From Candidatus Omnitrophota bacterium (lineage in GTDB: Bacteria > Omnitrophota > Gorgyraeia > S143-82): a DNA stretch of 64,000 nucleotides. Positions within the stretch are counted from its first letter, which is position 1. Each line of letters starts with the position of its first letter. The position numbers and the translations under genes were made by a program. The notes below the pieces were generated by a model. That model did no database searches. It was given only the letters and a program-made list of their open reading frames with translations, and was not told the origin of the DNA. The stretch lies in contig WGBD01000002.1 in NCBI GenBank assembly GCA_015494465.1, positions 197,267 through 261,266 of the forward strand, given 5' to 3'. This document shows, piece by piece, positions 2,492 to 52,334 of this stretch.

Positions 2492-2529
2492 AACTCCCTC
2501 CCTGGCTTATAGTTTCACCTCTAAATTAC

Positions 2530-4675: not shown

Positions 4676-4676
4676 A

Positions 4677-5105: not shown

Positions 5106-5120
5106 AGCTAGGCACTTACC

Positions 5121-5561: not shown

Positions 5562-5648
5562 CCGACACCTCCTTTTTGTTACTGACCTATCTACCTAAGA
5601 CCGATCCCATTGAAGTATAACACAAAGCGTAAACCCCTGCCAGCGTAT

Positions 5649-6875: not shown

Positions 6876-6885
6876 TGTCGTGTAA

Positions 6886-8577: not shown

Positions 8578-8589
8578 CTTGCATCCCGA

Positions 8590-10968: not shown

Positions 10969-12492
10969 TTATACACACCTCAAGGAAAAGGCCAAATACT
11001 CTCTCTTCCCGTCTTTTTCCCGTCTATAATACAACAAATCTATATCGTTGAAATATCCCTCAAGATCTTTGCGAAGGTTTTCGGTAAGCTCTTCTAGGGC
11101 CTTGATCTCTTTTTCAGGATCCCCAAGATAAACCCCTCCGGTCAAGGTAAGCTGTATCTTCCCGGTTCGGATGTCCAATTTTAACCGGAAGGGGAGTTTA
11201 AGCCAAAAGCTCCCTCCAAATCTCCTCTTGATCACCTCTAACACCCTATACACGCCCTTTTTGTGATCCAGATACGAAGAGAATATCTTTATCTCCCTTT
11301 CAAAATATCTCTGTTTATTATCTATATCCCTCTGGGAAACCGAGCCGGGTCTGGGGAAAACGTCCTTCGGAAGGGTTGCTATCACGGCATTATACTCCTT
11401 CCTTATAGCGTTGTACCTCTGATAATGATAAAAACTGTACCCCCCTCCTACCAAGACAGCGCCCAATACCACATAGATAAACATCTCCTCAGGGATACCT
11501 GCAAACCACGCCTCAACAGCGGCCAAAACTGGTAACCTAAAGGAAGGGCCCTTACCAGTCTGTCGTTCTTCTCTTCTCACCTCTATCATAGGTAGCCTCT
11601 GAACCACCATTGCCAAGACCGCACCATAGGCGGAGGCGAGAAAACCCACATCCTTTATCCCAGCTATCGAATCCGCGAACGGTAAGAGTTTATTCAAGGG
11701 CAAGTTTGCCTCTACCGGAAAACTGAGCGACTCGTCCAGGAGACAAAGCAATGGAATCTTATCGCCTTCAACCAAGTCCCGATGGGCCTTTTTATAATAT
11801 TCCACAATCAATGTAAGCTCAGAATCCAACTGTTTTAACGAAGAGATCTCTTTCACCAATAGATTGCTGTTTTTGTCACTCAGGGTCAAAACATACTTAT
11901 CCTCCGCAGGATAGAGGAGGGAAAAGATAGTCTTCTCAGGGAAACGGCCACTATTCTTGACCAATGTCCACATAGCTAGATCCCTAGGGCAAAAGAGAAC
12001 TCGAGCAACCCAGTCTGGCGGAACTACTTGCTGTATATAAGACCGCAATATCCCATAGAAGACTACTTCCTGTTTTTTGGCTTCCTTTGCGGTTACAAAA
12101 AAACTATACCTAATCTCTTCTAATCTCGCCGGGAGCTTCCGCTTGACGTTTAGTATAACAGCAGAGGCCAACTCTTTTGGGCTAACTATCGGCAAGGAAA
12201 GTCGTCGCAGTACAGTATATTGTTCAGGTACTATAAATAGAAACTTACAGTCTTTAAGAGGGATATTGGCTTTCCTGCTTAGCCTTTCTATTAGGCCAGG
12301 AAAAGCCGCGGAAGGAATGGTCCCGGCAAGAACTTTCTCTTCCCAAGCAAAAATAAGATTGATCTGATGAGGCTTTCTAGTCTCGAATACTCCAAATCGA
12401 AATTCTCTACGGATGTCTGAATAAGAAATAACTATTACATATTTATGGGAAAACGATAGCAGGAATGAAAACAATTTCGTGGTATCCCACAT
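10969..12492 (-). CDS. PilM-PilN fusion protein (GspL-like architecture)
   Basis: 507 aa. The N-terminal ~300 aa look like a divergent actin-like PilM/GspL cytoplasmic domain. Then a single TM helix (MFIYVVLGAVLVGGGYSFY) and a ~170-aa PilN-like periplasmic domain. Confidence 0.5.
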   Translation of the reverse strand: MWDTTKLFSFLLSFSHKYVIVISYSDIRREFRFGVFETRKPHQINLIFAWEEKVLAGTIPSAAFPGLIERLSRKANIPLKDCKFLFIVPEQYTVLRRLSLPIVSPKELASAVILNVKRKLPARLEEIRYSFFVTAKEAKKQEVVFYGILRSYIQQVVPPDWVARVLFCPRDLAMWTLVKNSGRFPEKTIFSLLYPAEDKYVLTLSDKNSNLLVKEISSLKQLDSELTLIVEYYKKAHRDLVEGDKIPLLCLLDESLSFPVEANLPLNKLLPFADSIAGIKDVGFLASAYGAVLAMVVQRLPMIEVRREERQTGKGPSFRLPVLAAVEAWFAGIPEEMFIYVVLGAVLVGGGYSFYHYQRYNAIRKEYNAVIATLPKDVFPRPGSVSQRDIDNKQRYFEREIKIFSSYLDHKKGVYRVLEVIKRRFGGSFWLKLPFRLKLDIRTGKIQLTLTGGVYLGDPEKEIKALEELTENLRKDLEGYFNDIDLLYYRREKDGKREYLAFSLRCV

Positions 12493-13071: not shown

Positions 13072-16000
13072 CTAAAGTACCAAATAGACATTCTCCCTAC
13101 CAACGATGTCTTCTATCTCCTCTATAAAGGCAGGGGTCGGGCTCACGAATAGATCCTGATCCGTGTACACCAGGGCATAATCCCTTCTCCCCTTCACCAT
13201 CACCAAGAGAGGGACCTGGCCTCTGTAAAGCCCCAACCTTTCCCTCAGAACCACCAGATCTCGTTTATCCATCCCCGACACATCTATCTTCACCTCTTTT
13301 ATCACCTCTGCAATCGAGCCTATGTCCCACAGCTGATCCACCACGAACTTCACTCCGTTTTCGCTAACATCCGCCCGACCCAAGGCAATTAACACCTTGC
13401 CCTCTTCTATAAGGGACTGGTACTTCCGAAATACCGAAGGGAAACACATCGCCTCCACTTCTCCGGATAAATCCTCCAGGCTCAATACCGCAAACTTATC
13501 GGACTTGTCCTTTACCAGCCTGACCTGCACCTTGTTCAACACCCCAGCGATCGTCACTTGGGAGGAATCCTTCCTCTCTCCCAATTCAGCTATAGGGGTT
13601 ACCTTCAGACGGGATATCAACCCCTCATAATTGCTCAGCGGATGGCCCGAGAGGTAAAAACCGAGAGTCTCCCTCTCGTGGGCCAACAGCTCGTGCTCAG
13701 ACCACTCCTCACCCGGGAGGTCGAACCCCTGAGGTCCAGAAGAATGGGGTTGTGCCTCAAACAAGACCAGCTGTCCTAATAACTCGTCTCTCTTCCTGGC
13801 ACTCGCCTGGGCCAAGGCATCGTCCAAGGACTCGAACATCTGTTTCCGAGACATCCCCAACAGGTCCAGGGCCCCTGCCTTTATCAAGGACTCTATCACC
13901 TTCTTGTTCACTCGCTTGCCTGCCACTCGAGAACAAAAGTCGTAAAAGTCCTTATAGGCCCCAGACCTCTTTCTCTCACTAACTATGTCCTCTATAGCCC
14001 CAGCCCCTACGTTCTTTATGGCTCCCAAACCAAACCTTATCTTGTCCCCCTCCACGGAAAACTCGTACACGCTGTGGTTCACATCTGGGGGCAGTATCTC
14101 TATACCCATCTGTCGGGCGTCCTTCAGATACTCCACCATCTTGTCGGTGTTGTTGAATTCCGAGGTCAACAGTGAGGCCATAAACTCCAGGGGATAGTTC
14201 GCCTTCAGATATGCGGTCCTGTAGGAGACCAGGGCGTAGGCGGCAGAGTGAGACTTATTGAATCCGTATCCTGAGAAGAACTCTATAAGATCGAAGATCC
14301 GCTCCGCCACATCCCTTGAGACCCCGTTGTTCACGCATCCTGAGATAAACGCTGTCCTCTGCTCCTCCATCACCTCCGGGATCTTCTTTCCCATCGCCCG
14401 CCTGAGTATGTCCGCCTGGGCGAGAGAGAATCCTGCCAAAGAACTGGCTATCTGCATGACCTGCTCCTGATAGAGGATAACGCCGTAGGTCTCCCTCAGT
14501 ATCGGCTCCAGTTTGGGGTGCAGGTAGGATATCTCGGTCTCTCCTCTCTTCCTGCGAATAAAGTCGTCCAGCATCCCACTACCTATCGGACCTGGGCGGT
14601 ACAAGGCGAGTAGGGCGATGATGTCCTCAAACTTGTCCGGTTGCATCCGCACCAAGAGATCCCGCATCCCTGCGGATTCAAGTTGAAAAATACCCTTGGT
14701 GCGGGCCTCCCGCAGGAGTTGAAAGGTCTTCTCGTCGTCCAACGGGATCTCGTCAATGTCCAATCGTCTGCCCGTCCGCTCCTCTATAAAGTTCAAGGTC
14801 TTCTCTATCACCGTAAGGGTCTTTAGGCCGAGGAAGTCCATCTTCAACAGACCTATCTTCTCCAGGGACTTCATCTCGTAAGCGGTGCAGATCTGCCCCC
14901 GATTCTTATAAAGCGGGACATACTCCGTAAGGGGCTTGTCCGCTATCACCACCCCGGCAGCGTGGGTGGAGGCGTGGCGGGTAAGGCCTTCCAGAGCCAT
15001 AGCCACATCTATCAATTCCTTTATCTGGGGGGACTCGTCGTAGACCCTGCGCAGATCGGGCTCCACCTCCAAGGCCTCCTTCAGGGACATGGATTGGGGA
15101 ATCATCTTGGCTATCTTGTCCGCCAGAGAGTAGGGCAGGGCCATCGCCCGGGCCACATCCCTGACCACCGCCCGGGCCTGCATCGTGCCGAAGGTGATTA
15201 TCTGGGCGACACTACTGCGCCCGTACTTCTCCACCACATAGTCGATCACCTTCTGGCGGTTCTCGTAACAGAAGTCTATGTCTATGTCCGGCATGGAGAC
15301 GCGCTCGGGATTTAAAAATCGCTCGAACAGTAGCCCGTACTTGAGCGGGTCTATGTTGGTTATCCCCAAGAGATAACTCACCATACTCCCCGCAGCTGAT
15401 CCCCGTCCCGGTCCGACTGGAATGCGATTCTCTTTGGCGTAGCGCACGAAGTCCCACACGATAAGGAAGTAGTTCACATAGCCCATCCTCTCTATGATGG
15501 AGAACTCGAATTTGAGCCTCTCCATTACCTCCGCCCGCCTGCCGGGATCGTGATACCGCCTCTCCAGTCCCTGCATACACAATTCCCACAGGTATTCCCT
15601 GCTCGTCTTGCCCTCGGGCGGGTGAAAGAGCGGCATGTGGTTCTTGCCGAATTCCAATATCACATTGCACCTGTCCGCTATCTCCCGGGTGTTCAACACT
15701 GCCGAGGGCAGATCTTTGAACCTCCGCTTCATCTCCTCGGGAGAGGCAAAGTAGAATAGGTTGGAACTCATCCGCATCCGCTTAGGATCGTGTATGTTGG
15801 TCTGGGTCTGGATGCAGAGGAGGATCTCGTGGGCCCGGGCGTGTTCGGGAAGTATGTAATGGACATCGTTGGTGGCCACCAACCCCAAGTCGTACTTCTT
15901 GGCCAGATCCACCAGGCCCCTGTTGGCCTTCTCCTGCTCCGGTATAGCGTTCTCCTGCACCTCCAAGTAGAAGTTCTCCCTCCCGAATATCTCCAGATAC

Positions 16001-16491
16001 TCACGCAGGGCCTTCTCCGCCAGATCCCTGCGATCCTTGAGGATCCAGTACGCGATCTCCCCCTTCAGACAGGCGCTCAAGCCGATTAATCCCTCCCCAT
16101 ACTCCCGCAGGAGGTCCTTGTCTATCCGGGGATACCGGTAAAACCCCTCAAAGACTGCCTTGGTCGTCAACTGGATGAGGTTTTTGTACCCCAGTTCGTC
16201 CTTGCACAACAGGACCAGGTGGAAGGCGGGCGGTAATCCGTTGGTCTCGCCTTTATCAAATCGGGACCTCGGGGCGACATAGACCTCACTGCCCAAGATG
16301 GGTTTCACCCCTGCCTCCATCGCCTTGGAATAGAACTGGATCGCAGCGAACATATTCCCGTGGTCGGTCACCGCCACCGCAGGCATACGAAACTCCGCCG
16401 CCTTGCTTACGATGTCCCCGAGATGGCAGGCCCCATCCAAGAGACTAAACTCACTGTGGAGGTGGAGATGAACGAAATCGGAGTGATACAT
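13072..16491 (-). CDS. dnaE: DNA polymerase III alpha subunit
   Basis: The N-terminal PHP domain begins MYHSDFVHLHLHSEFSLLDGA. Start was trimmed to the ATG at 16489-16491 because the track ORF's first 32 codons read through tRNA-Leu. ~1139 aa. Confidence 0.95.
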   Translation of the reverse strand: MYHSDFVHLHLHSEFSLLDGACHLGDIVSKAAEFRMPAVAVTDHGNMFAAIQFYSKAMEAGVKPILGSEVYVAPRSRFDKGETNGLPPAFHLVLLCKDELGYKNLIQLTTKAVFEGFYRYPRIDKDLLREYGEGLIGLSACLKGEIAYWILKDRRDLAEKALREYLEIFGRENFYLEVQENAIPEQEKANRGLVDLAKKYDLGLVATNDVHYILPEHARAHEILLCIQTQTNIHDPKRMRMSSNLFYFASPEEMKRRFKDLPSAVLNTREIADRCNVILEFGKNHMPLFHPPEGKTSREYLWELCMQGLERRYHDPGRRAEVMERLKFEFSIIERMGYVNYFLIVWDFVRYAKENRIPVGPGRGSAAGSMVSYLLGITNIDPLKYGLLFERFLNPERVSMPDIDIDFCYENRQKVIDYVVEKYGRSSVAQIITFGTMQARAVVRDVARAMALPYSLADKIAKMIPQSMSLKEALEVEPDLRRVYDESPQIKELIDVAMALEGLTRHASTHAAGVVIADKPLTEYVPLYKNRGQICTAYEMKSLEKIGLLKMDFLGLKTLTVIEKTLNFIEERTGRRLDIDEIPLDDEKTFQLLREARTKGIFQLESAGMRDLLVRMQPDKFEDIIALLALYRPGPIGSGMLDDFIRRKRGETEISYLHPKLEPILRETYGVILYQEQVMQIASSLAGFSLAQADILRRAMGKKIPEVMEEQRTAFISGCVNNGVSRDVAERIFDLIEFFSGYGFNKSHSAAYALVSYRTAYLKANYPLEFMASLLTSEFNNTDKMVEYLKDARQMGIEILPPDVNHSVYEFSVEGDKIRFGLGAIKNVGAGAIEDIVSERKRSGAYKDFYDFCSRVAGKRVNKKVIESLIKAGALDLLGMSRKQMFESLDDALAQASARKRDELLGQLVLFEAQPHSSGPQGFDLPGEEWSEHELLAHERETLGFYLSGHPLSNYEGLISRLKVTPIAELGERKDSSQVTIAGVLNKVQVRLVKDKSDKFAVLSLEDLSGEVEAMCFPSVFRKYQSLIEEGKVLIALGRADVSENGVKFVVDQLWDIGSIAEVIKEVKIDVSGMDKRDLVVLRERLGLYRGQVPLLVMVKGRRDYALVYTDQDLFVSPTPAFIEEIEDIVGRENVYLVL

Positions 16492-16506
16492 ATCCCTCAA
16501 CCTCTC

Positions 16507-16593
<87 letters not shown>

Positions 16594-19499: not shown

Positions 19500-20230
19500 C
19501 CTGACACCCAGCTCAACAGCCCCGCACAATAACCCACCGCTGTCTCCACCCGCAAGACGAACCTCCCGAGCGTTACCTCTATAGCCCCTTTCTCCCGAGC
19601 CAACTCCACCTCTTCTGGGGTAAAGTCCCCCTCGGGACCGATCAGGACCACTATCCAATCGCAATCGCAGGATCGCTTTAGAGGGAACAAATCCTCGAGA
19701 AGATCCTTACTCCCAGCGCTAAGGTGGGGGATGTACACGCGAGTCCTAGCCCGAGAAAACTCCTCCAGTACCCGGGGAAAATCCATAACCCCGCTTATCT
19801 CGGGGACAAACGGATTACCAGTCGTCCTGCAGACCTGCCTGGCCTTCCTCAGCCACCTCTCCTTTACCGTACCCTCGGGTAGGCGCACCACGCTACGCTT
19901 GGTCACCATCGGGATGAGGCGAGTTATCCCAAACTCAGCGCAGAAGCCTACAAGCTCGTCAAACCGATTGGCGGAGACCAAGGCACAGGCAATAGCGGTC
20001 TTCACCCGTCCTTTTGGGAGCTCAGCCACCTCAAAGACCTTTACCCTGGCAAGGCGATCCTCGAGGGAGATCAAGTTCCCCTTCAATACCTTGCCACCCA
20101 GCATGATGACATCAATCCGCTCCCCCGCCTCGGCCCTCGCCACCTTGAGGTGATGTAGGGTCTCCGAATCGCAGATCAACACCTCGTCACCCTCAAAGAT
20201 GTCCCCTTCGCTGAACAGGATTCGTATCAT
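19496..20230 (-). CDS. rsmE: 16S rRNA (uracil1498-N3)-methyltransferase
   Basis: 244 aa with a PUA-like N-domain and a SPOUT C-domain. Motif LIGPEGDFTPEE. Confidence 0.8.
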   Translation of the reverse strand: MIRILFSEGDIFEGDEVLICDSETLHHLKVARAEAGERIDVIMLGGKVLKGNLISLEDRLARVKVFEVAELPKGRVKTAIACALVSANRFDELVGFCAEFGITRLIPMVTKRSVVRLPEGTVKERWLRKARQVCRTTGNPFVPEISGVMDFPRVLEEFSRARTRVYIPHLSAGSKDLLEDLFPLKRSCDCDWIVVLIGPEGDFTPEEVELAREKGAIEVTLGRFVLRVETAVGYCAGLLSWVSG

Positions 20231-20946
20231 AAACTCACCCCGGCAATAGAAAGGACCTCCGCAGACGGAAACTTTCCCTTGTCGGTAATAAGGACGCCGT
20301 TGCGATCCACTCCCTTCACCTGCACCAGCTCTTCCCTATCACCTACCAATATACGCCAAGGCTCTCCCACTCCCCACAACCCCTTTAGATATCCCTGATA
20401 GACCTCTTCTTCTCCCAAAGCCAAGGTCTCGTTCACGCTATCCATTATCCCAAACAAGGCCTCCCAGGGCGAGACTTCCATTCCCAGATCCGCTAAAGAG
20501 ATTACCCTCTTGTCCTCCACTGCTGGCCGGCCTTGTACATTGACACCTATCCCGCAGAGGTAGAGGGCTTCAACCGGCCCCTCGACAAGAACCCCACCCA
20601 GTTTCGCCGACCTGCAGTAGAGATCGTTGGGCCACTTTATCACCACATCGTCCAAAAGATAGCCCAACCACCGGTGCACCGCAAGGGCAAGGGACATACC
20701 CAGGACCGCGGGCCGGCCCGCCCAACCCAAAGAGAAGGAAAGATACAGCCCACCCGCTGGGGAGGCCCACCTCCTTCCCCTGCGCCCCCGACCGGCAGAC
20801 TGGGCACCAGCCACGCAGACGAGTCCCTCCACGGGATAACTCCGGACGAGATCCCGCAACCAGTCCTGGGTAGAGGTTACTTCCTCCAAGTAAAATATCC
20901 TATCCCCGAGGAGGTTGGACCTCACCATCGCCTCCTCCCCGGCCAC
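20227..20946 (-). CDS. birA: biotin--[acetyl-CoA-carboxylase] ligase (class I, no DNA-binding domain)
   Basis: 239 aa. Signature motifs GRGRRGRRW and KWPNDL. Confidence 0.8.
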   Translation of the reverse strand: MAGEEAMVRSNLLGDRIFYLEEVTSTQDWLRDLVRSYPVEGLVCVAGAQSAGRGRRGRRWASPAGGLYLSFSLGWAGRPAVLGMSLALAVHRWLGYLLDDVVIKWPNDLYCRSAKLGGVLVEGPVEALYLCGIGVNVQGRPAVEDKRVISLADLGMEVSPWEALFGIMDSVNETLALGEEEVYQGYLKGLWGVGEPWRILVGDREELVQVKGVDRNGVLITDKGKFPSAEVLSIAGVSL

Positions 20947-21803
20947 TTCCTATTGGCCCTCACCTCTACCCTTCCCCCCGCCCCCAAAAAGGCCACCAAG
21001 GCCCCTATTCCGCTGCGCTCACTTACCTCAAGGCCCTTTAGTCCCAACACATACACCGCAGTCGCCCAGGCGTCCGCAAGGGCACAATTAGGTGCATAAC
21101 AGGAGGCGCTGACCAAATCCCCTACCTTCCTTCCTGAGCGGGGGTCCCAGATGTGCCTGCCCCGTTCGTAACTGCCCGAGGTGGCAATCGCCCCTCCCCG
21201 CAGACGCACCCTATCCAACGGCCTCCTACCCAGGGGATTGCGCACCTCCACCCAGACCCCCATCTGCCTCTTATCGAACAACCCCACATCACCGCCGGCG
21301 TTCACCATCAGAAACTCCATCCCCTCACCCTCTGCCCTCTCAATAAGGCGATCCACTATGTAGCCCTTAGCAACCCCGGAGAAGTCGTACCTTCCTCCCT
21401 CCGGGGCCCTGATCCCCTCCTCAAGGACCTCTATCCCCATCGCCGAGGCCCTACCTTTGTAGCCCGGATCAAAGGCCCCACCGCTCCCCTTGCAGACCTC
21501 CTTGCTCACCTCTATCACATCCCTCAACACCGGATAACAGGGATCACCGCTCGGTATCCATCCCCCCCTGTTGAGTCTCCCCACGCAGGAATCAGCCCGA
21601 TAGAAGGACAACTTCCCCTCGAGATCCCGGGCAAGGGCAAGCAAGTCCCTGAGTTTGCCCCTATCCTGTTTAGGAAGGACGAAGTCCACATAGGTATCCA
21701 TCAGGACGAAGGATTCCCTGACGAGGCCTGCCCCCTGTATCCGGACCAAGGCAACGGCCACCAAGACCAGTCCTAATAAGACAGCAACGGCGTACCGCTT
21801 CAT
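20922..21803 (-). CDS. apbE: FAD:protein FMN transferase
   Basis: 293 aa with a signal/anchor and ApbE-family layout (LMDTYV...SGSYERG...). Confidence 0.75.
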   Translation of the reverse strand: MKRYAVAVLLGLVLVAVALVRIQGAGLVRESFVLMDTYVDFVLPKQDRGKLRDLLALARDLEGKLSFYRADSCVGRLNRGGWIPSGDPCYPVLRDVIEVSKEVCKGSGGAFDPGYKGRASAMGIEVLEEGIRAPEGGRYDFSGVAKGYIVDRLIERAEGEGMEFLMVNAGGDVGLFDKRQMGVWVEVRNPLGRRPLDRVRLRGGAIATSGSYERGRHIWDPRSGRKVGDLVSASCYAPNCALADAWATAVYVLGLKGLEVSERSGIGALVAFLGAGGRVEVRANRKWPGRRRW

Positions 21804-22058: not shown

Positions 22059-22904
22059 TCAAGCGATGCAGTCCACTAGCGGAGAGATATCGACAAGAGC
22101 CTTAGGCAGAACCGCATTAGCGTAGAGGCAGGCTATGTCAGGACTAAAGGGGATCCTGAGGGCCAGAGGTACGGACTCCTCCTCGAGCCAGGCCTGCAGA
22201 CGCCCATCCAGTTCCCCGGAAATGCCACTCTTGTTTGCCACCGCAACGACCTCCACATCGAACCTGCGCACCAAAGCCAGCAGCCTCTCCGCATCCGACA
22301 GACCGGACAACGAGGCCTCCACGACCAACACCACCACATCCGCCCCGGATATCGCAGATATCACCGGGCATCCCAACCCCGGCGGTCCGTCCACCAACAG
22401 CCACCTGCATCCCAAGGCCATTGCCCTCTTTCTGGCCCTGCCCTTTAACTCGCTTACCAGACGCCCGGAACTCCCCCGGCCCGGGAGGAGTTCTGCGTAG
22501 AACAGCTCTCCCCAATCGGTCCGTCCGAAAAACACATCCCCGGTATCCTCCTCCACCATCTCTATCGCCGAGGCAGGACACACAAAGGCACACACCCCAC
22601 AGCCCTCGCACAGTTCGGGCACGACATAGGCCTTGCCATCCCTATCCTCTATCGCCGAAAACCTGCAGGCCTGCCAGCATCTGCCACAACCCCTGCAAAC
22701 ATCCCTCTTCACCCGAGCCACCGTGCCCAGATGGAGGCGCTGGGAAGATTCAATCTTCGGGCCGAGAAGGAGGTGGAGGTTGGACGCCTCCACATCGCAG
22801 TCGCATATCACCTTGCTCTCAGGTGTAGAGGCCAAGAGAGCGGTAATCAGCGTCTTGCCGGCTCCTCCCTTGCCACTTGCGACCACTATCTCCTTCGGCC
22901 TCAT
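22059..22904 (-). CDS. MinD/ParA-superfamily P-loop ATPase with inserted 2x[4Fe-4S] ferredoxin domain
   Basis: 281 aa. Deviant Walker A SGKGGAGKT and CxxCxxC...C clusters (CRGCGRCWQAC, CEGCGVCAFVC). Confidence 0.75.
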   Translation of the reverse strand: MRPKEIVVASGKGGAGKTLITALLASTPESKVICDCDVEASNLHLLLGPKIESSQRLHLGTVARVKRDVCRGCGRCWQACRFSAIEDRDGKAYVVPELCEGCGVCAFVCPASAIEMVEEDTGDVFFGRTDWGELFYAELLPGRGSSGRLVSELKGRARKRAMALGCRWLLVDGPPGLGCPVISAISGADVVVLVVEASLSGLSDAERLLALVRRFDVEVVAVANKSGISGELDGRLQAWLEEESVPLALRIPFSPDIACLYANAVLPKALVDISPLVDCIA

Positions 22905-23755
22905 CCCCTCACCCTCGCCATCAGCGCATCCCTCAGGGAATCCAAGATTGCCCGCAACTCCCCCGATGCGGAATAGGGATCAATACCCCGGGCCAGTGAA
23001 CGATGCACCTCCTCCCTGAAAGGGACCTTGGCCAAGACCTCTATCCCTTCCTCCTCGCACACCCGCAGGACCTCTCCATTGCCCATCCCGTAGCGATTTA
23101 CCACCACCAGGACATCTATACCCATCTCCCTAGCCACCCTCACCGCCTTGCGGAAGTCGTGGGCCCCGAAGGGGGTATCCTCAACCACGCCCAGAAGGAG
23201 GTCCGCCCCCTCAACCGACTCCACGAAGGCACAGCCACTACCGGGAGGGCAATCCAACACCAACCACTGCCCACCCACTCCTTCCGCCTTCACCTCCCTT
23301 ATCACCGGCCCGGGATTTGCCTGCCCCACCTTAAGCCACCCGCTAACCAACTCCAGACCTCCACCCACCGCCTTTACCACCTCCCCTATAACCACCTCTC
23401 TTTCCTCAATTGCCCCTTCCGGACAGACCAACACGCACCCCCCACAGCGATGGCAGAACTCCTCCAGAACGATCGCTTTGTCGAATACCACTATCGCGTT
23501 GAACCGGCAGAAGTCCCGACACCTACCGCAGGCAGTACAGTCCTCCTGCCTCACCACCGGCACAGAGGAAAGGACCTCTCGGCGACTTACCTCCCGAAGG
23601 TCCTTGAAAAACAGGTGGGCGTTTGGCTCCTCGACATCCAGATCCAAGAGGGATACCCTCTCCCCCGCAGAGACGAAGGCACGGGCCAGCCCCACCGCCA
23701 AGGTGGTCTTGCCCGTGCCCCCTTTTCCTCCTGCCAGAGCGATCCTGACTGCCAA
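22901..23755 (-). CDS. MinD/ParA-superfamily P-loop ATPase with 4Fe-4S ferredoxin domain (paralog)
   Basis: 284 aa. Motifs GGKGGTGKTT, CTACGRCRDFC and CHRCGGCVLVC. Confidence 0.75.
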   Translation of the reverse strand: MAVRIALAGGKGGTGKTTLAVGLARAFVSAGERVSLLDLDVEEPNAHLFFKDLREVSRREVLSSVPVVRQEDCTACGRCRDFCRFNAIVVFDKAIVLEEFCHRCGGCVLVCPEGAIEEREVVIGEVVKAVGGGLELVSGWLKVGQANPGPVIREVKAEGVGGQWLVLDCPPGSGCAFVESVEGADLLLGVVEDTPFGAHDFRKAVRVAREMGIDVLVVVNRYGMGNGEVLRVCEEEGIEVLAKVPFREEVHRSLARGIDPYSASGELRAILDSLRDALMARVRG

Positions 23756-23757
23756 AC

Positions 23758-24084
23758 CTACCTGCTCCCCTGTGAGGTCAGGAATTCCCTAATCGCGTCC
23801 TCGCCCCGGCCGGAGTAGTCCTCGTAGGCCTTTATCCCTGCCACGGCCAAGAGGTCCTTGGCCTTGGGCCCTATGTTTTCCGCCAGAAGCACATCCACAG
23901 AGTGATTCCTGAGGGTCTGGACCGCTGCGGGCCCTGCTCCGCTGGAGGCCTCAAAACCGGGATTTTCTACAACCTCGTATCGGCCGGACTGCGAATCGTA
24001 TATCAGGAACCACTGCGCCCGGCCGAACTTCTCGTCCATCAAGGCCTCCTTGCTCGGGGCAGAGACCGGCACCGCTATCCTCAT
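23758..24084 (-). CDS. NifX/NafY-like dinitrogenase FeMo-cofactor-binding-domain protein
   Basis: Start taken at the internal ATG (24082-24084), giving MRIAVPVSAPSKEALMDEKFGRAQWFLIYD... (~108 aa). This is a typical Nitro_FeMo-Co fold sequence. The start overlaps the DUF5320-like stop by 4 nt. Confidence 0.7.
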   Translation of the reverse strand: MRIAVPVSAPSKEALMDEKFGRAQWFLIYDSQSGRYEVVENPGFEASSGAGPAAVQTLRNHSVDVLLAENIGPKAKDLLAVAGIKAYEDYSGRGEDAIREFLTSQGSR

Positions 24085-24377
24085 TCCTGACCCTCCTCGA
24101 GTTGCTTCCTCAACCACTCCCTCTGGGCATCTAGGGCAGAAAGTTGGGCCCGGAGGATGTCCTTTCTCTCCTCCTCGGACAGCGGTGCGGAAGCGGTCCT
24201 CCAAAACCACTGCCAGCCCATACCTCTGCCCCAGCCTCGCCCGAGGCCTCTGCCCCAACCGCCTCCAAGGCCTCTACCCCAGGTAAAGCCCGGGGCTCCT
24301 GCGCCAGAGCAGAACCCGAGTCCTCGTCCGGTCCTCGGGCCCAGGCCCATCGGTCCGGTTCCGTCTCCCCAAGGCAT
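24081..24377 (-). CDS. Gly/Arg-rich DUF5320-like small protein
   Basis: 98 aa: MPWGDGTGPMGLGPRTGRGLGFCSGAGAPGF...GRGLGRGWGRGMGW followed by a C-terminal coiled-coil/acidic tail. The pattern is that of DUF5320 proteins, which co-occur with DUF134 genes. Confidence 0.55.
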   Translation of the reverse strand: MPWGDGTGPMGLGPRTGRGLGFCSGAGAPGFTWGRGLGGGWGRGLGRGWGRGMGWQWFWRTASAPLSEEERKDILRAQLSALDAQREWLRKQLEEGQE

Positions 24378-24392: not shown

Positions 24393-24824
24393 TTAACACC
24401 TTCCTCTTCTCCTGCGCCTTCGGCCAAATCCACCTCCCCACACCGAGAGGTGGGTTGATCCGCACTCCGGACAGACATCGCTCTCCTTTGCGGTCCAGGT
24501 GGACTCACAGTCCTCGCAGAAAAACCTCTCCGCCTGCAGGCTCACCGGTCCCTTCTCCACCACCAAGGCCCACCCTTCGACCAAGGCCTTGGCCACCTTT
24601 TCGTGGGCACCGGCAAGCAATCTCGTGAGCGTGGGCCGGGAGACCCCCATCCTCTCTGCTGCCTCCTCGTGGCTCAGGCCACAGAGGTCCACCAACCTCA
24701 TCGCCTCGCACTCGTCCAGGGTCATCCTCAACATCCCCAAGGCCCTGACGGGTATCCCCTGAGGCTTAAAGACCCTGACCACCGGTGGACTTCCCACTAT
24801 CCTGTCCTTCTTTGGCCTGCTCAT
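24393..24824 (-). CDS. DUF134/UPF0251 predicted DNA-binding protein (sigma-70 region-4-like HTH plus C-terminal Cys4 zinc ribbon)
   Basis: 143 aa. HTH segment LDECEAMRLVDLCGLSHEEAAERMGVSRPTLTRLL. C-terminal CEDC...CPEC zinc ribbon. Confidence 0.7.
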   Translation of the reverse strand: MSRPKKDRIVGSPPVVRVFKPQGIPVRALGMLRMTLDECEAMRLVDLCGLSHEEAAERMGVSRPTLTRLLAGAHEKVAKALVEGWALVVEKGPVSLQAERFFCEDCESTWTAKESDVCPECGSTHLSVWGGGFGRRRRRRGRC

Positions 24825-24837: not shown

Positions 24838-24857
24838 TTTTGAACTATAGTTCAAAA
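24838..24857. promoter_or_regulatory. perfect 20-bp palindrome TTTTGAACTATAGTTCAAAA just upstream of the DUF134 start codon; candidate operator
   Basis: Read directly. It is 14 nt upstream of the ATG at 24824. A second palindrome GTCAAATTGAC sits at 24889-24899, with a TTGACT -35-like hexamer on the minus strand. Confidence 0.45.
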
Positions 24858-24911
24858 CTATGATACAAACAACCTCCAAGATTTTCAAGTCAAATTGACA
24901 AAAATAGGCAG

Positions 24912-26624
24912 TTACGACTTTCTAAGAAAGGCCAGCAACCGATCCGGATCCCAGGCGTTGATAACATCCTCCCTGCTCAGCCACCCCCGACGGGCAGTAC
25001 CCACGCCGAAGAAGATGTAGTCCAACTGCTGATGGGAATGGGCGTCGGTGTTGATGCAGACCTTCACGCCCATCTCCTTTGCCATCCGGCAGTGGTCCGC
25101 ATTCAGGTCCAGACGGAACGGAGAGGAGTTCAACTCCAGGGCAACGCCCTTTTTTTTGGCGGCCTCCATTATCCGCTCCATGTCCACCTCGTAGGCCTCG
25201 CGCTCACCCAACAACCTCCCGGTGGGGTGGGCGAGGATGTTTACCTCGGGATGGGATATCGCCCTGACGATCCTCTCGGTCATCTCCTCCCTGTCCATCT
25301 TGAATCGGGAGTGGACCGCCACTATCACCACATCCAACTCCTTCAGTATGTCCTCGTCGCAGTCCAGACTTCCGTCGGCAAGGATGTCCACCTCCATCCC
25401 TGCGAGGATGCGCACCCGAGGATACAACCTCTGCAAGCGCCTTATCTCCTCCCTCTGGGCCTTGACCTTCTCCCGGGTCATACCCTTCGCCACCGCCAGG
25501 GAAGGGGAGTGATCGGTTATCGCTATGTACTTATACCCCTTTTCCAAGGCCTTCTTCACCATCGCCTCTATCTCGTCCACTCCGTCGCTGTAGGTGGTGT
25601 GCATGTGCAGATCCCCGCAAACATCTTCCACCTCTATCAACTCCGGCAGGTCGTGGGCGAGGGCGAGTTCCACCTCTCCCTGATCTTCCCGGATCTCCGG
25701 AGGGATCCAATCCATCCCCAGGCAGTCGTAGACCTCCTCTTCCGACCTGCCCGCTACCATCTTCTCACCCTTGAATAGGCCGTATTCGTTGAGTTTCAGG
25801 CCCTTATCTATGCAGATCTGACGGAGTTTTATGTTGTGTTCCTTGGAACCGGTGAAGTAGAGCATCGCTGCGCCGTAGGAATCCTCGTCGAACACCCTCA
25901 AGTCCATCTGCAGGCCGGAGATAATCACGCTGGACTTCTTCTCCCCCCGGGCCAGGACCTCCTCCACCTCGGGATACCTTACGAAGTGGTCCATCACCTT
26001 GGCGGGATTATCCGCCACCACCAGTATGTCCACATCGTGGACGGTCTCCTTGAACCTCCGGATGGAACCCACCACATCCACCCGCTTTACCCCCTTAAAC
26101 CCCGCGATGTAGTCCCTCACCTCGTAGGCCAGAGGCAGGACCTTGCCCAGCGGACTCCTTCCCTTGCTCCTGCGCAGAAACTCTATCCCTTTCAGGATGT
26201 TCTCCTCCGTTTTCGGACCAAACCCCGGCAGGGACCGCAACTTTCCCGCCCTGGCAGCGGTCTCCAACTCGTCGATACTGGATATCCCCAACTTATCGTA
26301 TATCACCTTCACCTTCTTGGGGCCCAGGCCCGGGATGTTCATCATCTCCAACAGACCCGGAGGCAGTTTCGCCTTCAGTTCCTCGTACTGGGCAAGGGTC
26401 CCGGTGCGATAGATCTCCTTTATCTTCTCCGCCAGGTCCTTGCCTATCCCCGGCAATTCCTCCAGCCTGTCCTGAAGGACATACTCTTCAAGGTCCTCGG
26501 GCAGGGACTCTATCCGCATCGCTGCCCGCTCGTAGGCCCTTACGCGAAAGGGATTGTCCCCCAAGAGGTCCAAGAGTTGGGCTATCTCGTAGAATATCTG
26601 GGCGACCTTCTTGTTCAGTATCAT
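24912..26624 (-). CDS. family X DNA polymerase with C-terminal PHP domain (PolX)
   Basis: 570 aa with N-terminal helix-hairpin-helix and Pol-beta-like domains. PHP motif HMHTTYSDG. Confidence 0.9.
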   Translation of the reverse strand: MILNKKVAQIFYEIAQLLDLLGDNPFRVRAYERAAMRIESLPEDLEEYVLQDRLEELPGIGKDLAEKIKEIYRTGTLAQYEELKAKLPPGLLEMMNIPGLGPKKVKVIYDKLGISSIDELETAARAGKLRSLPGFGPKTEENILKGIEFLRRSKGRSPLGKVLPLAYEVRDYIAGFKGVKRVDVVGSIRRFKETVHDVDILVVADNPAKVMDHFVRYPEVEEVLARGEKKSSVIISGLQMDLRVFDEDSYGAAMLYFTGSKEHNIKLRQICIDKGLKLNEYGLFKGEKMVAGRSEEEVYDCLGMDWIPPEIREDQGEVELALAHDLPELIEVEDVCGDLHMHTTYSDGVDEIEAMVKKALEKGYKYIAITDHSPSLAVAKGMTREKVKAQREEIRRLQRLYPRVRILAGMEVDILADGSLDCDEDILKELDVVIVAVHSRFKMDREEMTERIVRAISHPEVNILAHPTGRLLGEREAYEVDMERIMEAAKKKGVALELNSSPFRLDLNADHCRMAKEMGVKVCINTDAHSHQQLDYIFFGVGTARRGWLSREDVINAWDPDRLLAFLRKS

Positions 26625-28672: not shown

Positions 28673-30613
28673 ATGGAAGAGATATTTTCGTTTCAGTTGG
28701 ACGAATTCCAGAAGCAAGCACTCTCCGCCGTGGACGAGGGCTGTTCCCTGTTGGTCTCTGCACCCACTGGTGCGGGGAAGACGGTGATAGCGGAGTATGT
28801 GATTCATCGGTGTCTGGAGAAGGGGCTCGGGGTAATATACTGCGCACCCATAAAGGCCCTGAGCAACCAAAAGTTTCGGGACTTCCGCCAGAGGTACGGA
28901 GAGGACAAGATAGGGATACTCACCGGAGATGTCTCCCTCAATCCCGAGGCGCCGGTCCTGATAATGACCACCGAGATATTCCGCAACACCATCTTGGACT
29001 GTCCTTACCGGCTTGACTCCAAGTTCTGGGTGATATTCGACGAGATCCACTACATAGACGATGTGGAACGGGGGACGGTGTGGGAGGAGTCGATTATAAT
29101 GATGCCCAAGCACATGCGCCTCTTGGGATTGAGTGCAACCATCCCGAATGTAGAGGAACTGGGGGAGTGGATCCGCAAGATACACCCATTCCCCCTAAAG
29201 ATAATCGTGGAAGAACACCGCCCCGTCCCTTTGGAGTTCCGCTTCCAGTGCCACAACGAGATATTCACCTCGGTATCCGCACTAAAGGACCAGTGCTACC
29301 CTTGGATGGCCAACAAGCGCATCCCCCGTGCCTGGGATGTGGGGGCAAAGCCCAACAAACTGATTACCCTGATAAAACACCTGAGGGAGGAAGACCTCCT
29401 GCCCTGCATATACTTCGCCTTCAGCCGAAGGCGGTGTGAGATCCTCGCCTGGGAGGTGCGGAGGATGAACTTCCTCTCGCCCAGCGAGGCGGAAGAGATA
29501 ACCACCCGCTATTACGAATTACTGGAGCGCTTCGGGCTCATCGGAGACAAGTTCGCGGAAGACATGTACGACCTCGTGAGGCGGGGAATTGCCTTCCATC
29601 ACGCGGGCATGCTTCCGACGATGAAGGAGGTGATAGAGCAGTTGTTCACCTCCCGCCTGATAAAGGTGATATTCACCACCGAGACCTTTGCTCTGGGGAT
29701 AAACATGCCTGCCCGCACGGTGGTGTTCGACGAATTGCGGAAGTACTACGGCACCCACTTCGGCGAACTGCGCACCCGGGACTTCTACCAGATGGCGGGC
29801 AGGGCAGGGCGACGGGGGATAGACGAGAAGGGATATGTGTACTGCCGGATAAATCCCCATCACATAGACTTCTACACCCTGAAGCGCATAATATTCGGTC
29901 AGCCTGAGAAGGTAATCAGTCAGTTCAACATGTCCTACGCCTCCATCCTCCACCTCTACAAGGACCTTCAGGACCGGTTGGTAGACATATACCCGCTCTC
30001 CTTTGCCCACTTCCAGTCCAGCAAACGGGAGCACAGAGAGGACATCCGCATCATCCGGGCAAAGGTGCGCCTCCTCAAGGAACTGGGGTACATCCGAAAG
30101 AACCAGTTGACCGAAAAGGGAATCTTCGCCTCCCATGTTTACGGATACGAACTGCCCACTACCGAACTCTACTTTGCCGGCCTGTTCCGGGACCTCAACC
30201 CCAAAGAGCTCCTGGCCTTGGCCTCTGCTATCGTCTTCGAGCCCCGCAAGGGTCAACACAAACCACCCCTGCCAAAAGGGATTAAGTACCTGCAGAAACA
30301 ATCCAACCGGATCCTGCGCAGGATCATCCGCATGGAGAGGAAGTTTCAGCTCCTGCCCGTGACCAAACGCCTCCACTTCCACCTGGCCCTGGCGATAGTG
30401 CGCTGGGCCGAAGGGGAGAGCTTCGAGCGACTCAACCGCTACACCGACACCGATCCGGGCGAGATAGTGCGTTACTTCCGCATGGTAATCCAGTTGCTCA
30501 AGGACATCTGCGAGGTCCCACTCATAGATCCGAGACTGAAAGAGACCATCCACTCCGCCATAGAGAAGATAAATCGGGACGAGGTGGACGCGGAAAGGCA
30601 ACTGCGGGCCTGA
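28673..30613 (+). CDS. Ski2-like DEAD/DEAH-box helicase (HelY/Mtr4-like, short form)
   Basis: 646 aa. Motif I SAPTGAGKT, motif II FDEIHYIDD, SAT and HAGM motifs. Confidence 0.8.
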   Translation: MEEIFSFQLDEFQKQALSAVDEGCSLLVSAPTGAGKTVIAEYVIHRCLEKGLGVIYCAPIKALSNQKFRDFRQRYGEDKIGILTGDVSLNPEAPVLIMTTEIFRNTILDCPYRLDSKFWVIFDEIHYIDDVERGTVWEESIIMMPKHMRLLGLSATIPNVEELGEWIRKIHPFPLKIIVEEHRPVPLEFRFQCHNEIFTSVSALKDQCYPWMANKRIPRAWDVGAKPNKLITLIKHLREEDLLPCIYFAFSRRRCEILAWEVRRMNFLSPSEAEEITTRYYELLERFGLIGDKFAEDMYDLVRRGIAFHHAGMLPTMKEVIEQLFTSRLIKVIFTTETFALGINMPARTVVFDELRKYYGTHFGELRTRDFYQMAGRAGRRGIDEKGYVYCRINPHHIDFYTLKRIIFGQPEKVISQFNMSYASILHLYKDLQDRLVDIYPLSFAHFQSSKREHREDIRIIRAKVRLLKELGYIRKNQLTEKGIFASHVYGYELPTTELYFAGLFRDLNPKELLALASAIVFEPRKGQHKPPLPKGIKYLQKQSNRILRRIIRMERKFQLLPVTKRLHFHLALAIVRWAEGESFERLNRYTDTDPGEIVRYFRMVIQLLKDICEVPLIDPRLKETIHSAIEKINRDEVDAERQLRA

Positions 30614-45847: not shown

Positions 45848-45877
45848 AGCCTAATCCTTTCCTCAAATATTCTACCC

Positions 45878-48807: not shown

Positions 48808-48808
48808 A

Positions 48809-49285: not shown

Positions 49286-49323
49286 CCCGCTCTCGACCTC
49301 CTAACCACCTTATCGTCTCTCTT

Positions 49324-49620: not shown

Positions 49621-49629
49621 ATCCCCTCC

Positions 49630-50727: not shown

Positions 50728-50742
50728 CGTATCGTCACCCCT

Positions 50743-52331: not shown

Positions 52332-52334
52332 AGA

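What the first reader, a model, noticed from the sequence alone, without database searches (positions are those of the whole stretch)
24838..24899. Perfect 20-bp palindrome and a second 5-1-5 palindrome at the DUF134 promoter
TTTTGAACTATAGTTCAAAA (24838-24857) is an exact inverted repeat lying between a TTGACT -35-like hexamer and the DUF134 start codon on the minus strand. GTCAAATTGAC (24889-24899) is a second palindrome 30 nt further upstream. Exact 20-bp palindromes are rare by chance, and the position is typical of a repressor operator for the adjacent HTH protein.
Basis: seen in the sequence. Interest (0 to 1): 0.5.

Follow-up and report, generated by a model that had tools for sequence, protein, structure and literature searches.

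The report
Conserved operator of the DUF134 regulator
The 20-bp palindrome is a real control site, conserved across more than ten bacterial phyla, that sits on the promoter of an uncharacterised DNA-binding protein (DUF134) and is most likely read by that protein to shut off its own iron-sulfur-related operon; the second small palindrome is most likely chance.

Summary
The 20-bp perfect palindrome TTTTGAACTATAGTTCAAAA (24838-24857) is real. It starts 2 nt after the -10 of a good sigma-70-type promoter (TTGAAA-17-TATCAT, minus strand), so it covers the predicted transcription start of a five-gene operon: DUF134, DUF5320, a NifX-like protein and two MinD/Fer4 ATPases.

On its own it is only moderately rare: 7% of shuffled windows hold one as long. 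The decisive evidence is comparative:
- **Conservation.** The same box, TGARC-N4-GYTCA, lies on the core promoter of DUF134 genes in 40 distinct loci from more than 10 phyla. It is about 130-fold enriched there and at chance level elsewhere.
- **Covariation.** Half-site position 4 follows one residue of the adjacent DUF134 recognition helix. Thr goes with A in 30/30 half-sites and Gly with G in 23/24.
- **Homology.** The nearest solved HTH, B. subtilis DeoR, contacts the same TTGAAC half-site at the same spacing, and its contact arginines are conserved.

Best reading: this is the autoregulatory operator of DUF134, acting as a repressor. Binding itself is untested.

The second palindrome GTCAAATTGAC is at chance frequency and is not conserved. 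TTGACT is not the -35. LexA box, RNA hairpin and REP-like readings are disfavoured. I found no published function for DUF134.

The parts
24838..24857 (.). DUF134 box: perfect 20-bp palindrome TTTTGAACTATAGTTCAAAA. The conserved core TGAAC-TATA-GTTCA is 24841-24854. Read as TTGAA-N6-TTCAA it has the geometry of the DeoR OL18 palindrome.
   Evidence: Sequence. Scores 27.1 bits against the 22-bp family PWM and is the only site in the window. Conserved in L001, L002, L005 and L008 and in 40 distinct DUF134 loci. Covaries with the DUF134 recognition helix.
24883..24888 (-). Predicted -35 hexamer TTGAAA
   Evidence: Promoter scan: TTGAAA-17-TATCAT, 10 of 12 matches, against 0.2 expected in shuffles. 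Conserved as TTGAAA, TTGAAA and TTGTAA in L001, L002 and L008. Not mapped experimentally.
24860..24865 (-). Predicted -10 hexamer TATCAT, 2 nt upstream of the palindrome
   Evidence: Invariant in WIN, L008, L001 and L002.
24852..24854 (-). Inferred transcription start, 6-8 nt after the -10, inside the 5' arm of the palindrome
   Evidence: Inference from the usual spacing between the -10 and +1 of sigma-70 promoters. Not measured.
24393..24824 (-). DUF134/UPF0251 gene (143 aa). It has an N-terminal basic arm, a sigma-70-region-4/DeoR-like HTH with recognition helix S62-R63-P64-T65-L66-T67-R68, and a C-terminal CxxC-x11-CxxC ribbon (C103, C106, C118, C121).
   Evidence: Pfam PF02001, 81.8 bits. 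Alignment invariants. AF2 model, pLDDT 81.6. HTH is 46% identical to the DeoR DNA-binding domain.
24081..24377 (-). DUF5320 gene, 15 nt after the DUF134 stop
   Evidence: PF17253, 90.8 bits. Same gene order in L002 and many other loci.
23758..24084 (-). NifX-like (Nitro_FeMo-Co domain) gene. Its ATG overlaps the DUF5320 stop codon (ATGA).
   Evidence: PF02579, 71.8 bits. Translation from the internal ATG. The L002 homologue is 107 aa.
22901..23755 (-). CbiA/MinD-type P-loop ATPase with an inserted 2x[4Fe-4S] ferredoxin domain
   Evidence: PF01656, PF10609 and PF00037.
22059..22904 (-). Second CbiA/MinD-Fer4 ATPase, overlapping the previous gene by 4 nt. Last gene of the operon.
   Evidence: Followed by a 255-nt gap containing a weak terminator-like hairpin at 21985-21964.

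Best explanation
The 20-bp palindrome is the operator ('DUF134 box', family consensus ATTATGAAC-ATAT-GTTCATAAT) of the DUF134/UPF0251 protein encoded immediately downstream. A DUF134 dimer places its two DeoR/sigma-region-4-like HTH motifs in successive major grooves on the TTGAAC half-sites. These lie 2 nt after the -10 hexamer and cover the predicted +1 of the promoter TTGAAA-17-TATCAT. Occupancy blocks RNA polymerase and so represses the operon DUF134-DUF5320-NifX-like-2x MinD/Fer4 ATPase, including DUF134 itself (negative autoregulation).

Release is presumably controlled through the C-terminal Cys4 ribbon, perhaps by metal, Fe-S or redox status. That last step is speculation.

Shown by computation: conservation, promoter overlap, protein-DNA covariation, and homology to a solved HTH-DNA complex. 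Inferred: dimer binding, repression rather than activation, position of the transcription start, and the signal.
For: 1. Close relatives keep only the -35, the -10 and the box in an otherwise diverged intergenic region with a different upstream gene. The relatives are L008 and L001 (95-96% aa) and L002 (57% aa).
2. TGARC-N4-GYTCA with at most 1 mismatch lies within 200 nt upstream of DUF134 in 40 distinct loci. Record titles name Omnitrophota, Spirochaetota, Bacteroidales, Cloacimonadota, Marinimicrobia, Planctomycetota, Lentisphaeria, Calditrichaceae, Actinomycetota, Acidobacteriota, Hydrogenedentota and others.
3. The strict form TGAAC-N4-GTTCA (at most 1 mismatch) gives 32 hits in 12.45 kb of upstream sequence, against 16 in 794 kb elsewhere, where about 23 are expected by chance.
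4. Four of four further loci reached by an independent route also carry a palindrome of this form (three score 24-36 bits; L211, with a divergent helix, 9.5 bits).
5. In 37 of 40 loci the site overlaps a sigma-70-like core promoter. It lies in the -35/-10 spacer in 16 and directly after the -10 in 21. These are classical repressor positions.
6. Covariation: helix residue 6 of S-R-x-T-x-[X]-R is Thr with A at half-site position 4 in 30/30 half-sites. It is Gly with G in 23/24, and Ser is mixed at 9 A and 3 G. Fisher p = 2e-14, not corrected for phylogeny. The switches are scattered over a helix-masked NJ tree.
7. The closest solved relative of the HTH is B. subtilis DeoR: profile E = 5e-7, rmsd 0.6 A over 40 residues, 46% identity. 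Its crystal structures show base contacts by R34 and R39 to 5'-TTGAACA-3' in the palindrome ATTGAA-CAAAAT-TTCAAT, and its operator also contains ACATATGTTCAA (PMC11229326). The matching arginines R63 and R68 are invariant or nearly invariant in DUF134.
8. The window holds a single site of 27.1 bits, with the next best at 4.1 bits. Extra strong sites in other loci precede DUF5320, Fer4, NifX-like and ZIP-transporter genes.
Against: - There is no experimental binding, footprint or transcription-start data for any DUF134 protein.
- The promoter is a consensus prediction in a phylum (Omnitrophota) whose promoters are not characterised.
- About half of the 80 fetched loci, mainly the Desulfobacca-type clade with helix SRPTVTRML, lack the box. 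Autoregulation through this box is therefore not universal in the family.
- The covariation statistic is not phylogenetically corrected. Position 3 (A/C) does not follow a simple residue rule: L053 and L208 share the helix SRPTVSR but have GAAC and GCAC sites.
- The GAAC-N4-GTTC core is shared with LexA boxes of Firmicutes and Actinobacteria (PMC4951493).
- Dimerisation of DUF134 was not modelled.
Confidence: 0.75

Rival explanations
1. The box is bound by DUF134, but as an activator or dual regulator rather than an autorepressor.
For: Direction of regulation was not measured. The HTH resembles sigma-70 region 4. In 16 loci the site sits in the -35/-10 spacer, as for MerR-type activators.
Against: The promoters have near-consensus hexamers and the optimal 16-18 nt spacing, so they need no activator or MerR-like untwisting. 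In the window and 20 other loci the site lies downstream of the -10, over +1, where bound proteins normally repress (established promoter-architecture knowledge).
Confidence: 0.1
2. The palindrome is an SOS (LexA, 'Cheo') box. Its core GAAC-N4-GTTC is the LexA motif of Firmicutes and Actinobacteria, and a DNA-repair polymerase (PolX) lies next to it.
For: The core is identical to the published LexA motif (PMC4951493). The PolX gene ends 55 nt before the palindrome.
Against: - The box lies downstream of polX and upstream of DUF134, and polX is not the neighbour in L008 or L002.
- It tracks DUF134 in Bacteroidales, whose SOS motifs are GGA-N5-TCC and CTAA-N5-TTAG (PMC8565304), and in many other phyla.
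- Its variants covary with the DUF134 helix.
- The flanks are T/A, not the C/G of CGAAC...GTTCG.
- The downstream genes are not SOS genes.
- No lexA or recA lies in the window or loci, so their promoters could not be compared.
Confidence: 0.04
3. Another transcription factor binds the site, for example a SorC/DeoR-type or global regulator with a TTGAAC-type specificity, and its association with DUF134 genes reflects membership of that factor's regulon.
For: DeoR-type HTHs bind TTGAAC half-sites. Only 64 kb of the genome is available here.
Against: The association holds across more than 10 phyla, with DUF134 as the only constant neighbour. The half-site changes follow substitutions in the DUF134 recognition helix itself. 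No SorC-family gene was seen among the genes scanned around the site, but most of the 64-kb window was not scanned.
Confidence: 0.06
4. The palindrome acts at the RNA level, as a 5'-UTR hairpin or as a terminator or stabiliser hairpin for the upstream polX transcript. Alternatively it is a chance or REP-like AT-rich palindrome.
For: It can fold as a 9-bp stem with a 4-nt loop. The exact 18-mer TTTGAACNATAGTTCAAA also occurs in at least 120 unrelated metagenome contigs with no DUF134 gene. Some of these lie between convergent or tandem genes.
Against: - Folding energy is unremarkable: -8.2 kcal/mol, z = -1.39, with 21 of 200 shuffles as good.
- There is no U-tract, no terminator call and no Rfam hit.
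- The predicted +1 lies inside the 5' arm. In 16 loci the box is in the untranscribed -35/-10 spacer.
- Asymmetric half-sites that would break pairing are common, for example TGCAC...GTTCA and TGAAC...GCTCA.
- There is one copy in the window and chance density in the flanks.
Confidence: 0.04

Closest known systems
Operator and DNA-binding domain of Bacillus subtilis DeoR (SorC family; PDB 7bhy, 8r7y)
   Same: - It is the closest solved relative of the DUF134 HTH: profile E = 5e-7, 46% identity over 37 aa, rmsd 0.6 A.
- The recognition helix is SRPTVSR in DeoR and SRPTLTR here, and both base-contacting arginines are kept.
- The half-site and geometry match: DeoR ATTGAA-CAAAAT-TTCAAT and ...ACATATGTTCAA against window TTGAA-CTATAG-TTCAA.
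- DeoR is a repressor whose operator overlaps the promoter.
   Different: - DUF134 has no SorC sugar-phosphate effector domain. Instead it has an N-terminal basic arm and a C-terminal Cys4 ribbon.
- No full-length structural match exists in the PDB.
- The window has one 20-bp dyad, not a 39-bp bipartite operator bound by a tetramer.
- The regulated genes are Fe-S/NifX-like, not nucleoside catabolism.
LexA 'Cheo'/SOS box GAAC-N4-GTTC of Firmicutes and Actinobacteria
   Same: Identical 12-bp core with an AT-rich centre. It is a repressor site overlapping promoters (PMC4951493).
   Different: The flanking bases differ. The gene context is DUF134 and Fe-S ATPases rather than lexA, recA or uvr. The box occurs in phyla with other SOS motifs (PMC8565304). 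Its variants covary with DUF134.
Autoregulated regulators that head Fe-S or metal-homeostasis operons, such as IscR-iscSUA (comparison from my own knowledge)
   Same: The regulator is the first gene of the operon. A palindromic site lies on its own promoter. The regulator carries a Cys-rich motif. The operon encodes Fe-S-related proteins. In one locus a ZIP metal transporter is under the same box.
   Different: The fold differs (sigma-r4/DeoR-like HTH plus zinc ribbon, not an Rrf2 winged helix) and so does the motif. There is no evidence that DUF134 binds a cluster or metal as a signal. This is a 'works like' comparison only.

Membership tests
DUF134 / UPF0251 (PF02001) protein, adjacent gene | Match to the Pfam model above the gathering threshold | tested here: met
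   81.8 bits against a cut-off of 27, residues 2-93. 77 homologues found. 5,447 cluster representatives at E <= 1e-3.
Autoregulatory operator of a dimeric HTH repressor | Dyad-symmetric site overlapping the core promoter of the regulator's own gene | tested here: met
   Perfect dyad. It starts 2 nt after the predicted -10. The promoter is predicted, not mapped.
Autoregulatory operator of a dimeric HTH repressor | Site conserved upstream of orthologous regulators and enriched there over background | tested here: met
   40 distinct loci. 32 hits in 12.45 kb against 16 in 794 kb. Four of four extra loci carry it.
Autoregulatory operator of a dimeric HTH repressor | Specificity link between the regulator and the site | tested here: met
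   Helix residue Thr with A in 30/30 half-sites, Gly with G in 23/24, p = 2e-14 uncorrected. Several independent switches on the tree. The homologous DeoR HTH contacts TTGAAC.
Autoregulatory operator of a dimeric HTH repressor | Direct binding, and repression in vivo or in vitro | not testable with these tools
   Needs EMSA, footprinting and reporter assays. No literature on DUF134 function was found.
LexA / SOS box (Firmicutes-Actinobacteria type) | GAAC-N4-GTTC core | tested here: met
   GAACTATAGTTC at 24842-24853, the only instance in the window.
LexA / SOS box (Firmicutes-Actinobacteria type) | Located at promoters of SOS genes (lexA, recA, uvr, error-prone polymerases), and confined to clades whose LexA uses this motif | tested here: not met
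   The site lies upstream of DUF134 and Fe-S genes. No lexA or recA is present in the window or the DUF134 loci (L001-L087). The same box occurs in Bacteroidales, whose SOS motifs differ.
SorC/DeoR-family regulator-operator pair | DeoR-type HTH recognising a TTGAA(C)-type palindrome | tested here: met
SorC/DeoR-family regulator-operator pair | C-terminal SorC sugar-phosphate effector domain, with a tetramer on a bipartite operator | tested here: not met
   The 143-aa protein has a Cys4 ribbon and no SorC domain. The window has a single dyad.
Intrinsic terminator / structured RNA | G+C-rich stem followed by a U-tract, or a match to an RNA family | tested here: not met
   No terminator call at the site. 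No Rfam hit. Fold z = -1.39.
REP-like dispersed palindrome | Many copies scattered in intergenic regions of the same genome | tested here: not met
   One copy in 64 kb, including with up to 3 mismatches. Chance-level density in 794 kb of related loci. The whole genome is not available.

The most novel reading that the evidence does not exclude
DUF134/UPF0251 is a widespread family with about 5,400 clusters at 50% identity. On this reading it is a family of Cys4-containing, metal-, Fe-S- or redox-responsive autorepressors. Their conserved box (TGARC-N4-GYTCA) controls an uncharacterised cofactor-handling module of anaerobes: DUF5320, NifX-like, MinD/Fer4 ATPases and sometimes ZIP transporters. 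A one-residue recognition code (helix Thr reads A, Gly reads G) lets regulons be predicted from sequence.
Probability: 0.35. Interest if true: 0.65.

Novelty: new member of a known kind. Interest (0 to 1): 0.5.

Why it matters
DUF134/UPF0251 is a common protein family with no published function. It heads a conserved gene cluster, also without published function: DUF5320, NifX-like and MinD/Fer4 ATPases in anaerobic bacteria.

Assigning it a conserved operator does three things:
- It turns a 'predicted DNA-binding protein' into a testable autorepressor with a defined binding site.
- It gives a PWM for predicting its regulon in any genome.
- It suggests a simple amino-acid-to-base recognition rule that could be tested by helix swaps.

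The mechanism itself, an HTH repressor on a palindrome over its own promoter, is ordinary.

Tried and rejected
1. **Copies in the window.** I searched for other copies of the 16-mer (up to 3 mismatches), TGAAC-N2-10-GTTCA, GAAC-N4-GTTC and the family PWM. Only the one site turned up.
   - 69 hits lie inside long ORFs, including one abundant coding sequence, AAGTTTGAACTATCGTTCAAACTTG, found partly in human-gut contigs.
   - Others are AT-rich intergenic hairpins or a 22-bp satellite.
   - The pattern was too short for a database of that size. The scan shows only that the exact 18-mer is not exclusive to DUF134 loci.
3. **Direct LexA test.** The LexA rival therefore had to be judged from published motifs.
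4. **First locus search.** A 9-sequence alignment worked.
5. **Structure and RNA searches.** Rfam found no relevant family. The PDB sequence and fold searches found no full-length DUF134 relative.
6. **Literature.** Searches for DUF134, UPF0251, COG1342, PF02001, DUF5320 and the motif string returned nothing on function.
7. **A Pro-to-Ser rule for GCAC half-sites.** This looked promising. L208 contradicted it: helix SRPTVSR with GCAC on both halves.
8. **The second palindrome and TTGACT as functional elements.** Rejected as above.

Full report
**Observation.** The window reads TTTTGAACTATAGTTCAAAA at 24838-24857, an exact 20-bp inverted repeat. It reads GTCAAATTGAC at 24889-24899, a 5-1-5 palindrome. 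The 20-mer is the longest zero-spacer palindrome in the 64 kb; the next best arm is 8. Length alone is weak evidence. The expected number of arms of 10 or more is 0.054 per window, and 21 of 300 dinucleotide-preserving shuffles (7%) contain one. The 5-1-5 palindrome is unremarkable, with 65 such palindromes in the window against 59 expected.

**Local anatomy (minus strand).** The PolX gene (24912-26624) ends, and an 87-nt AT-rich spacer follows (38-39% G+C against about 60% around it).
- The genes after the spacer are DUF134 (24393-24824), DUF5320 (24081-24377), a NifX-like Nitro_FeMo-Co protein (23758-24084, its ATG overlapping the preceding stop) and two CbiA/MinD-type ATPases with inserted 4Fe-4S ferredoxin domains (22901-23755 and 22059-22904, overlapping by 4 nt). 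The tight spacing indicates one operon. A weak terminator-like hairpin follows at 21985-21964.
- The promoter scan finds one sigma-70-type promoter in the spacer: TTGAAA (24888-24883), 17 nt, TATCAT (24865-24860), 10 of 12 matches against 0.2 expected in shuffles.
- The palindrome begins 2 nt after the -10. The usual +1 (6-8 nt after the -10, about 24852-24854) therefore falls inside its 5' arm. This placement is inferred, not measured.

**Close relatives.** The DUF134 protein has a 96%-identical relative on a 654-bp ENA contig (L001) and a 95% relative in a Candidatus Omnitrophota MAG (L008). More distant relatives are at 57% (L002-L004) and 47% (L005-L007). The window is therefore most likely from an Omnitrophota bacterium.
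- All of these carry the box directly upstream of the start codon. L008 has TTTTGAACTATAGTTCAAAA, L001 TTTTGAACCATAGTTCAAAA, L002 TTTTGAACAATAGTTCAAAA and L005 TTAGAACTATAGTTCAGTT.
- Aligning WIN, L008, L001 and L002 leaves three conserved blocks: TTG.AA (-35), TATCAT (-10) and the box. Everything upstream has diverged, including the position of the second palindrome.
- The upstream gene also differs. It is polX here, a divergent 1056-aa ORF in L008 and clpB in L002.

**Wider family.** A genome scan with a DUF134 alignment returned 80 loci.
- TGAAC-N4-GTTCA with at most 1 mismatch occurs 32 times in the 12.45 kb lying within 150 nt upstream of DUF134. It occurs 16 times in the remaining 794 kb, where 31/4^10 per position predicts about 23 (my arithmetic). 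That is roughly 130-fold enrichment, with background at chance level.
- Allowing the variant TGAGC/GCTCA, 40 distinct loci including the window have a site within 200 nt. By the record titles, these MAGs are labelled Omnitrophota, Spirochaetes/Sediminispirochaeta/Leptospirales, Bacteroidales/Marinilabiliales, Cloacimonadota, Marinimicrobia, Planctomycetota/Brocadiaceae/Phycisphaerae, Lentisphaeria, Calditrichaceae, Actinomycetota, Acidobacteriota, Hydrogenedentota, Mcinerneyibacteriota and Thermodesulfobacteriota.
- The 22-bp consensus is ATTATGAACATATGTTCATAAT, with 27.5 bits of information.
- Four further loci reached through protein look-ups all carry a palindrome of the same form. L208 has TGCAC-ATAC-GTGCA, L209 TGAAC-ATAT-GCTCA, L210 two sites 23 bp apart, and L211 TGAAA-TATG-TTTCA, which scores only 9.5 bits on the family PWM (the other three score 24-36).
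- Loci with the box mostly have DUF5320, NifX-like or MinD-Fer4 genes downstream. The Desulfobacca-type clade (helix SRPTVTRML, 23 loci) lacks both the box and those genes.

**Position.** In 37 of the 40 loci the best sigma-70-like promoter overlaps the site. In 16 the site lies in the -35/-10 spacer (centre about -20). In 21, including the window, it lies immediately after the -10 (centre 0 to +6). In Bacteroidales it lies between a TTG and a TAnnTTTG element. That reading rests on the known Bacteroidetes promoter consensus, from my own knowledge. These are positions at which bound proteins normally repress.

**Who binds it.** Two independent lines point to DUF134 itself.
- *Covariation.* The operator variant follows the recognition helix of the adjacent protein. 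With helix S-R-x-T-x-[X]-R, X = Thr goes with A at half-site position 4 (TGAAC) in 30 of 30 half-sites. X = Gly goes with G (TGAGC) in 23 of 24. X = Ser is mixed at 9 A and 3 G, and Ala is mixed. Fisher p = 2e-14 for Thr against Gly, over 36 non-redundant helix/site pairs and not corrected for phylogeny. On an NJ tree built with the helix masked, Thr/Ser/His-type and Gly-type proteins are interleaved in the lower clade, so the switch happened several times. L211, with the divergent helix SKPTICR, has GAAA/TTTC half-sites.
- *Homology.* The closest solved relative of the HTH is the DNA-binding domain of B. subtilis DeoR, with profile E = 5e-7, Foldseek rmsd 0.6 A over 40 residues and 46% identity over 37 aa. 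In its DNA complexes DeoR makes base-specific contacts to 5'-TTGAACA-3' of the palindrome ATTGAACAAAATTTCAAT, with R34 and R39 contacting bases. The natural operator also contains ACATATGTTCAA (PMC11229326). From the SEQRES offset, R34 and R39 are the arginines of SRPT and SR-LL. The equivalents R63 and R68 are nearly invariant and invariant in DUF134. Read as TTGAA-N6-TTCAA, the window box has the same half-site and spacing as DeoR OL18.

**The protein.** The AF2 model (pLDDT 81.6) shows a three-helix HTH followed by a beta-rich C-terminal domain carrying CxxC-x11-CxxC (C103, C106, C118, C121). The C-terminal part weakly resembles HypA and MCM zinc ribbons. No full-length match exists in the PDB.

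**Rivals.**
- *LexA.* GAAC-N4-GTTC is the LexA motif of Firmicutes and Actinobacteria (PMC4951493). However, the box follows DUF134 into Bacteroidales, whose SOS motifs are GGA-N5-TCC and CTAA-N5-TTAG (PMC8565304). Its flanks are T/A, the downstream genes are not SOS genes, and its variants follow the DUF134 helix. No lexA or recA is present in the DNA held here for a direct comparison.
- *RNA hairpin or terminator.* Folding energy is ordinary (-8.2 kcal/mol, z = -1.39). There is no U-tract and no Rfam hit. The predicted +1 lies inside the arm, and in 16 loci the site is in the untranscribed spacer. Asymmetric half-sites that would break pairing are frequent.
- *REP-like repeat.* One copy in the window and chance density in the flanks.
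- *Exclusivity.* The exact 18-mer is not exclusive to DUF134 loci. A metagenome scan hit its 120-locus limit with no DUF134 neighbour, mostly in coding sequence or AT-rich eukaryote- or virus-like DNA. This reflects the short pattern and the size of the database, and says nothing about the lineages that carry DUF134.

**What is regulated, and the signal.** The window has a single site (27.1 bits, next best 4.1), so locally the target is the operon itself. Elsewhere, additional strong sites precede a ZIP transporter followed by DUF134 (L032), a NifX-like gene (L038), Fer4 proteins (L049, L016) and DUF5320 genes (L061, L020). That gene set and the Cys4 ribbon suggest a metal, Fe-S or redox signal. 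This is conjecture.

**Comparison with what is known, and novelty.** The mechanism is the classical one of a dimeric HTH repressor on a dyad over its own promoter. What appears new is the assignment.
- Full-text searches for DUF134, UPF0251, COG1342, PF02001 and the motif string found no functional study.
- The family is large, with 5,447 cluster representatives at E <= 1e-3.
- I therefore rate it a new member of a known kind, of moderate interest.

**Limits.**
- Everything here is computational.
- The promoter and +1 are predicted.
- MAG taxonomic labels are taken as given.
- The covariation test is not phylogenetically corrected.
- Only open-access literature was searched.

Noticed in passing
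L021, L027, L028, L030, L040, L042, L048, L073, L075: nucleotides +314 to +335 of the DUF134 coding sequence: In Bacteroidales and Sediminispirochaeta loci a second box-like sequence lies at the same place inside the DUF134 gene, for example ATTGTGGACATATGTTCAATAC, scoring 16-26 bits. It encodes C-G-H-M-F-N of the zinc ribbon. It could be an auxiliary internal operator or a coding coincidence. It is absent from the window gene.
   Followed up: partly
L032:5190, L038:9350, L049:6499, L016:697, L061:5697, L020:5678 and 6618: Extra strong DUF134 boxes precede a ZIP metal transporter (then DUF134), a NifX-like gene, Fer4 proteins with RG-rich tails, and DUF5320 genes. These are candidate regulon members beyond the regulator's own promoter.
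   Followed up: partly
L009-L011, L014, L015, L017, L019, L026, L031, L034, L035, L039, L054, L058, L067, L069, L074, L076, L078, L079, L084, L085, L087 (upstream 160 nt): The Desulfobacca-type DUF134 clade (helix SRPTVTRML) lacks both the box and the Fe-S ATPase genes. It shares a different upstream pattern: GTTCGTCAATG about 90 nt upstream, then CCTTGACAG as the -35. This may be a different regulatory arrangement for a paralogous subfamily.
   Followed up: no
L023 (two TGAACCATGGTTCA copies), L210 (two sites 23 bp apart), L046, L082: Some loci carry two boxes in tandem upstream of DUF134. This hints at cooperative or tetrameric binding, as in DeoR. The window has only one.
   Followed up: no
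L008:6001-6314: In the Omnitrophota MAG S143_82 the DUF134 reading frame departs from the window protein after about residue 60 (…ERMGSPGPRSRD…). This is probably a frameshift or assembly error near the contig end.
   Followed up: no
L151:154-315, L099:577-616, L204:352-391: The 18-mer recurs as a 22-bp tandem satellite (ACATTTGAACCATAGTTCAAATACA, 6 or more copies) in soil metagenome contigs. L151, the one inspected, has no convincing ORFs. The satellite is unrelated to DUF134.
   Followed up: partly
L088, L089, L094, L102, L104 and about 30 other metagenome loci: A 25-nt palindromic coding sequence, AAGTTTGAAC(T/G)AT(C/A)GTTCAAACTT(G/A), recurs in many metagenome contigs, several of them labelled human gut, and mostly inside a long ORF. 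The gene was not identified.
   Followed up: no
window 461-12492, 13072-16587, 20227-21803, 24912-26624, 28673-30613, 45395-53877: Domains confirmed by Pfam scan: DnaE (DNA polymerase III alpha), ApbE and a biotin/lipoate ligase-family gene just downstream of the operon, PolX with a PHP domain just upstream, and a Ski2-like DEAD/DSHCT helicase. By eye from N-terminal sequences only, not scanned: a run of pseudopilin-like small proteins with possible GspE/GspF-type neighbours, and a flagellar rod/hook-associated gene cluster.
   Followed up: partly
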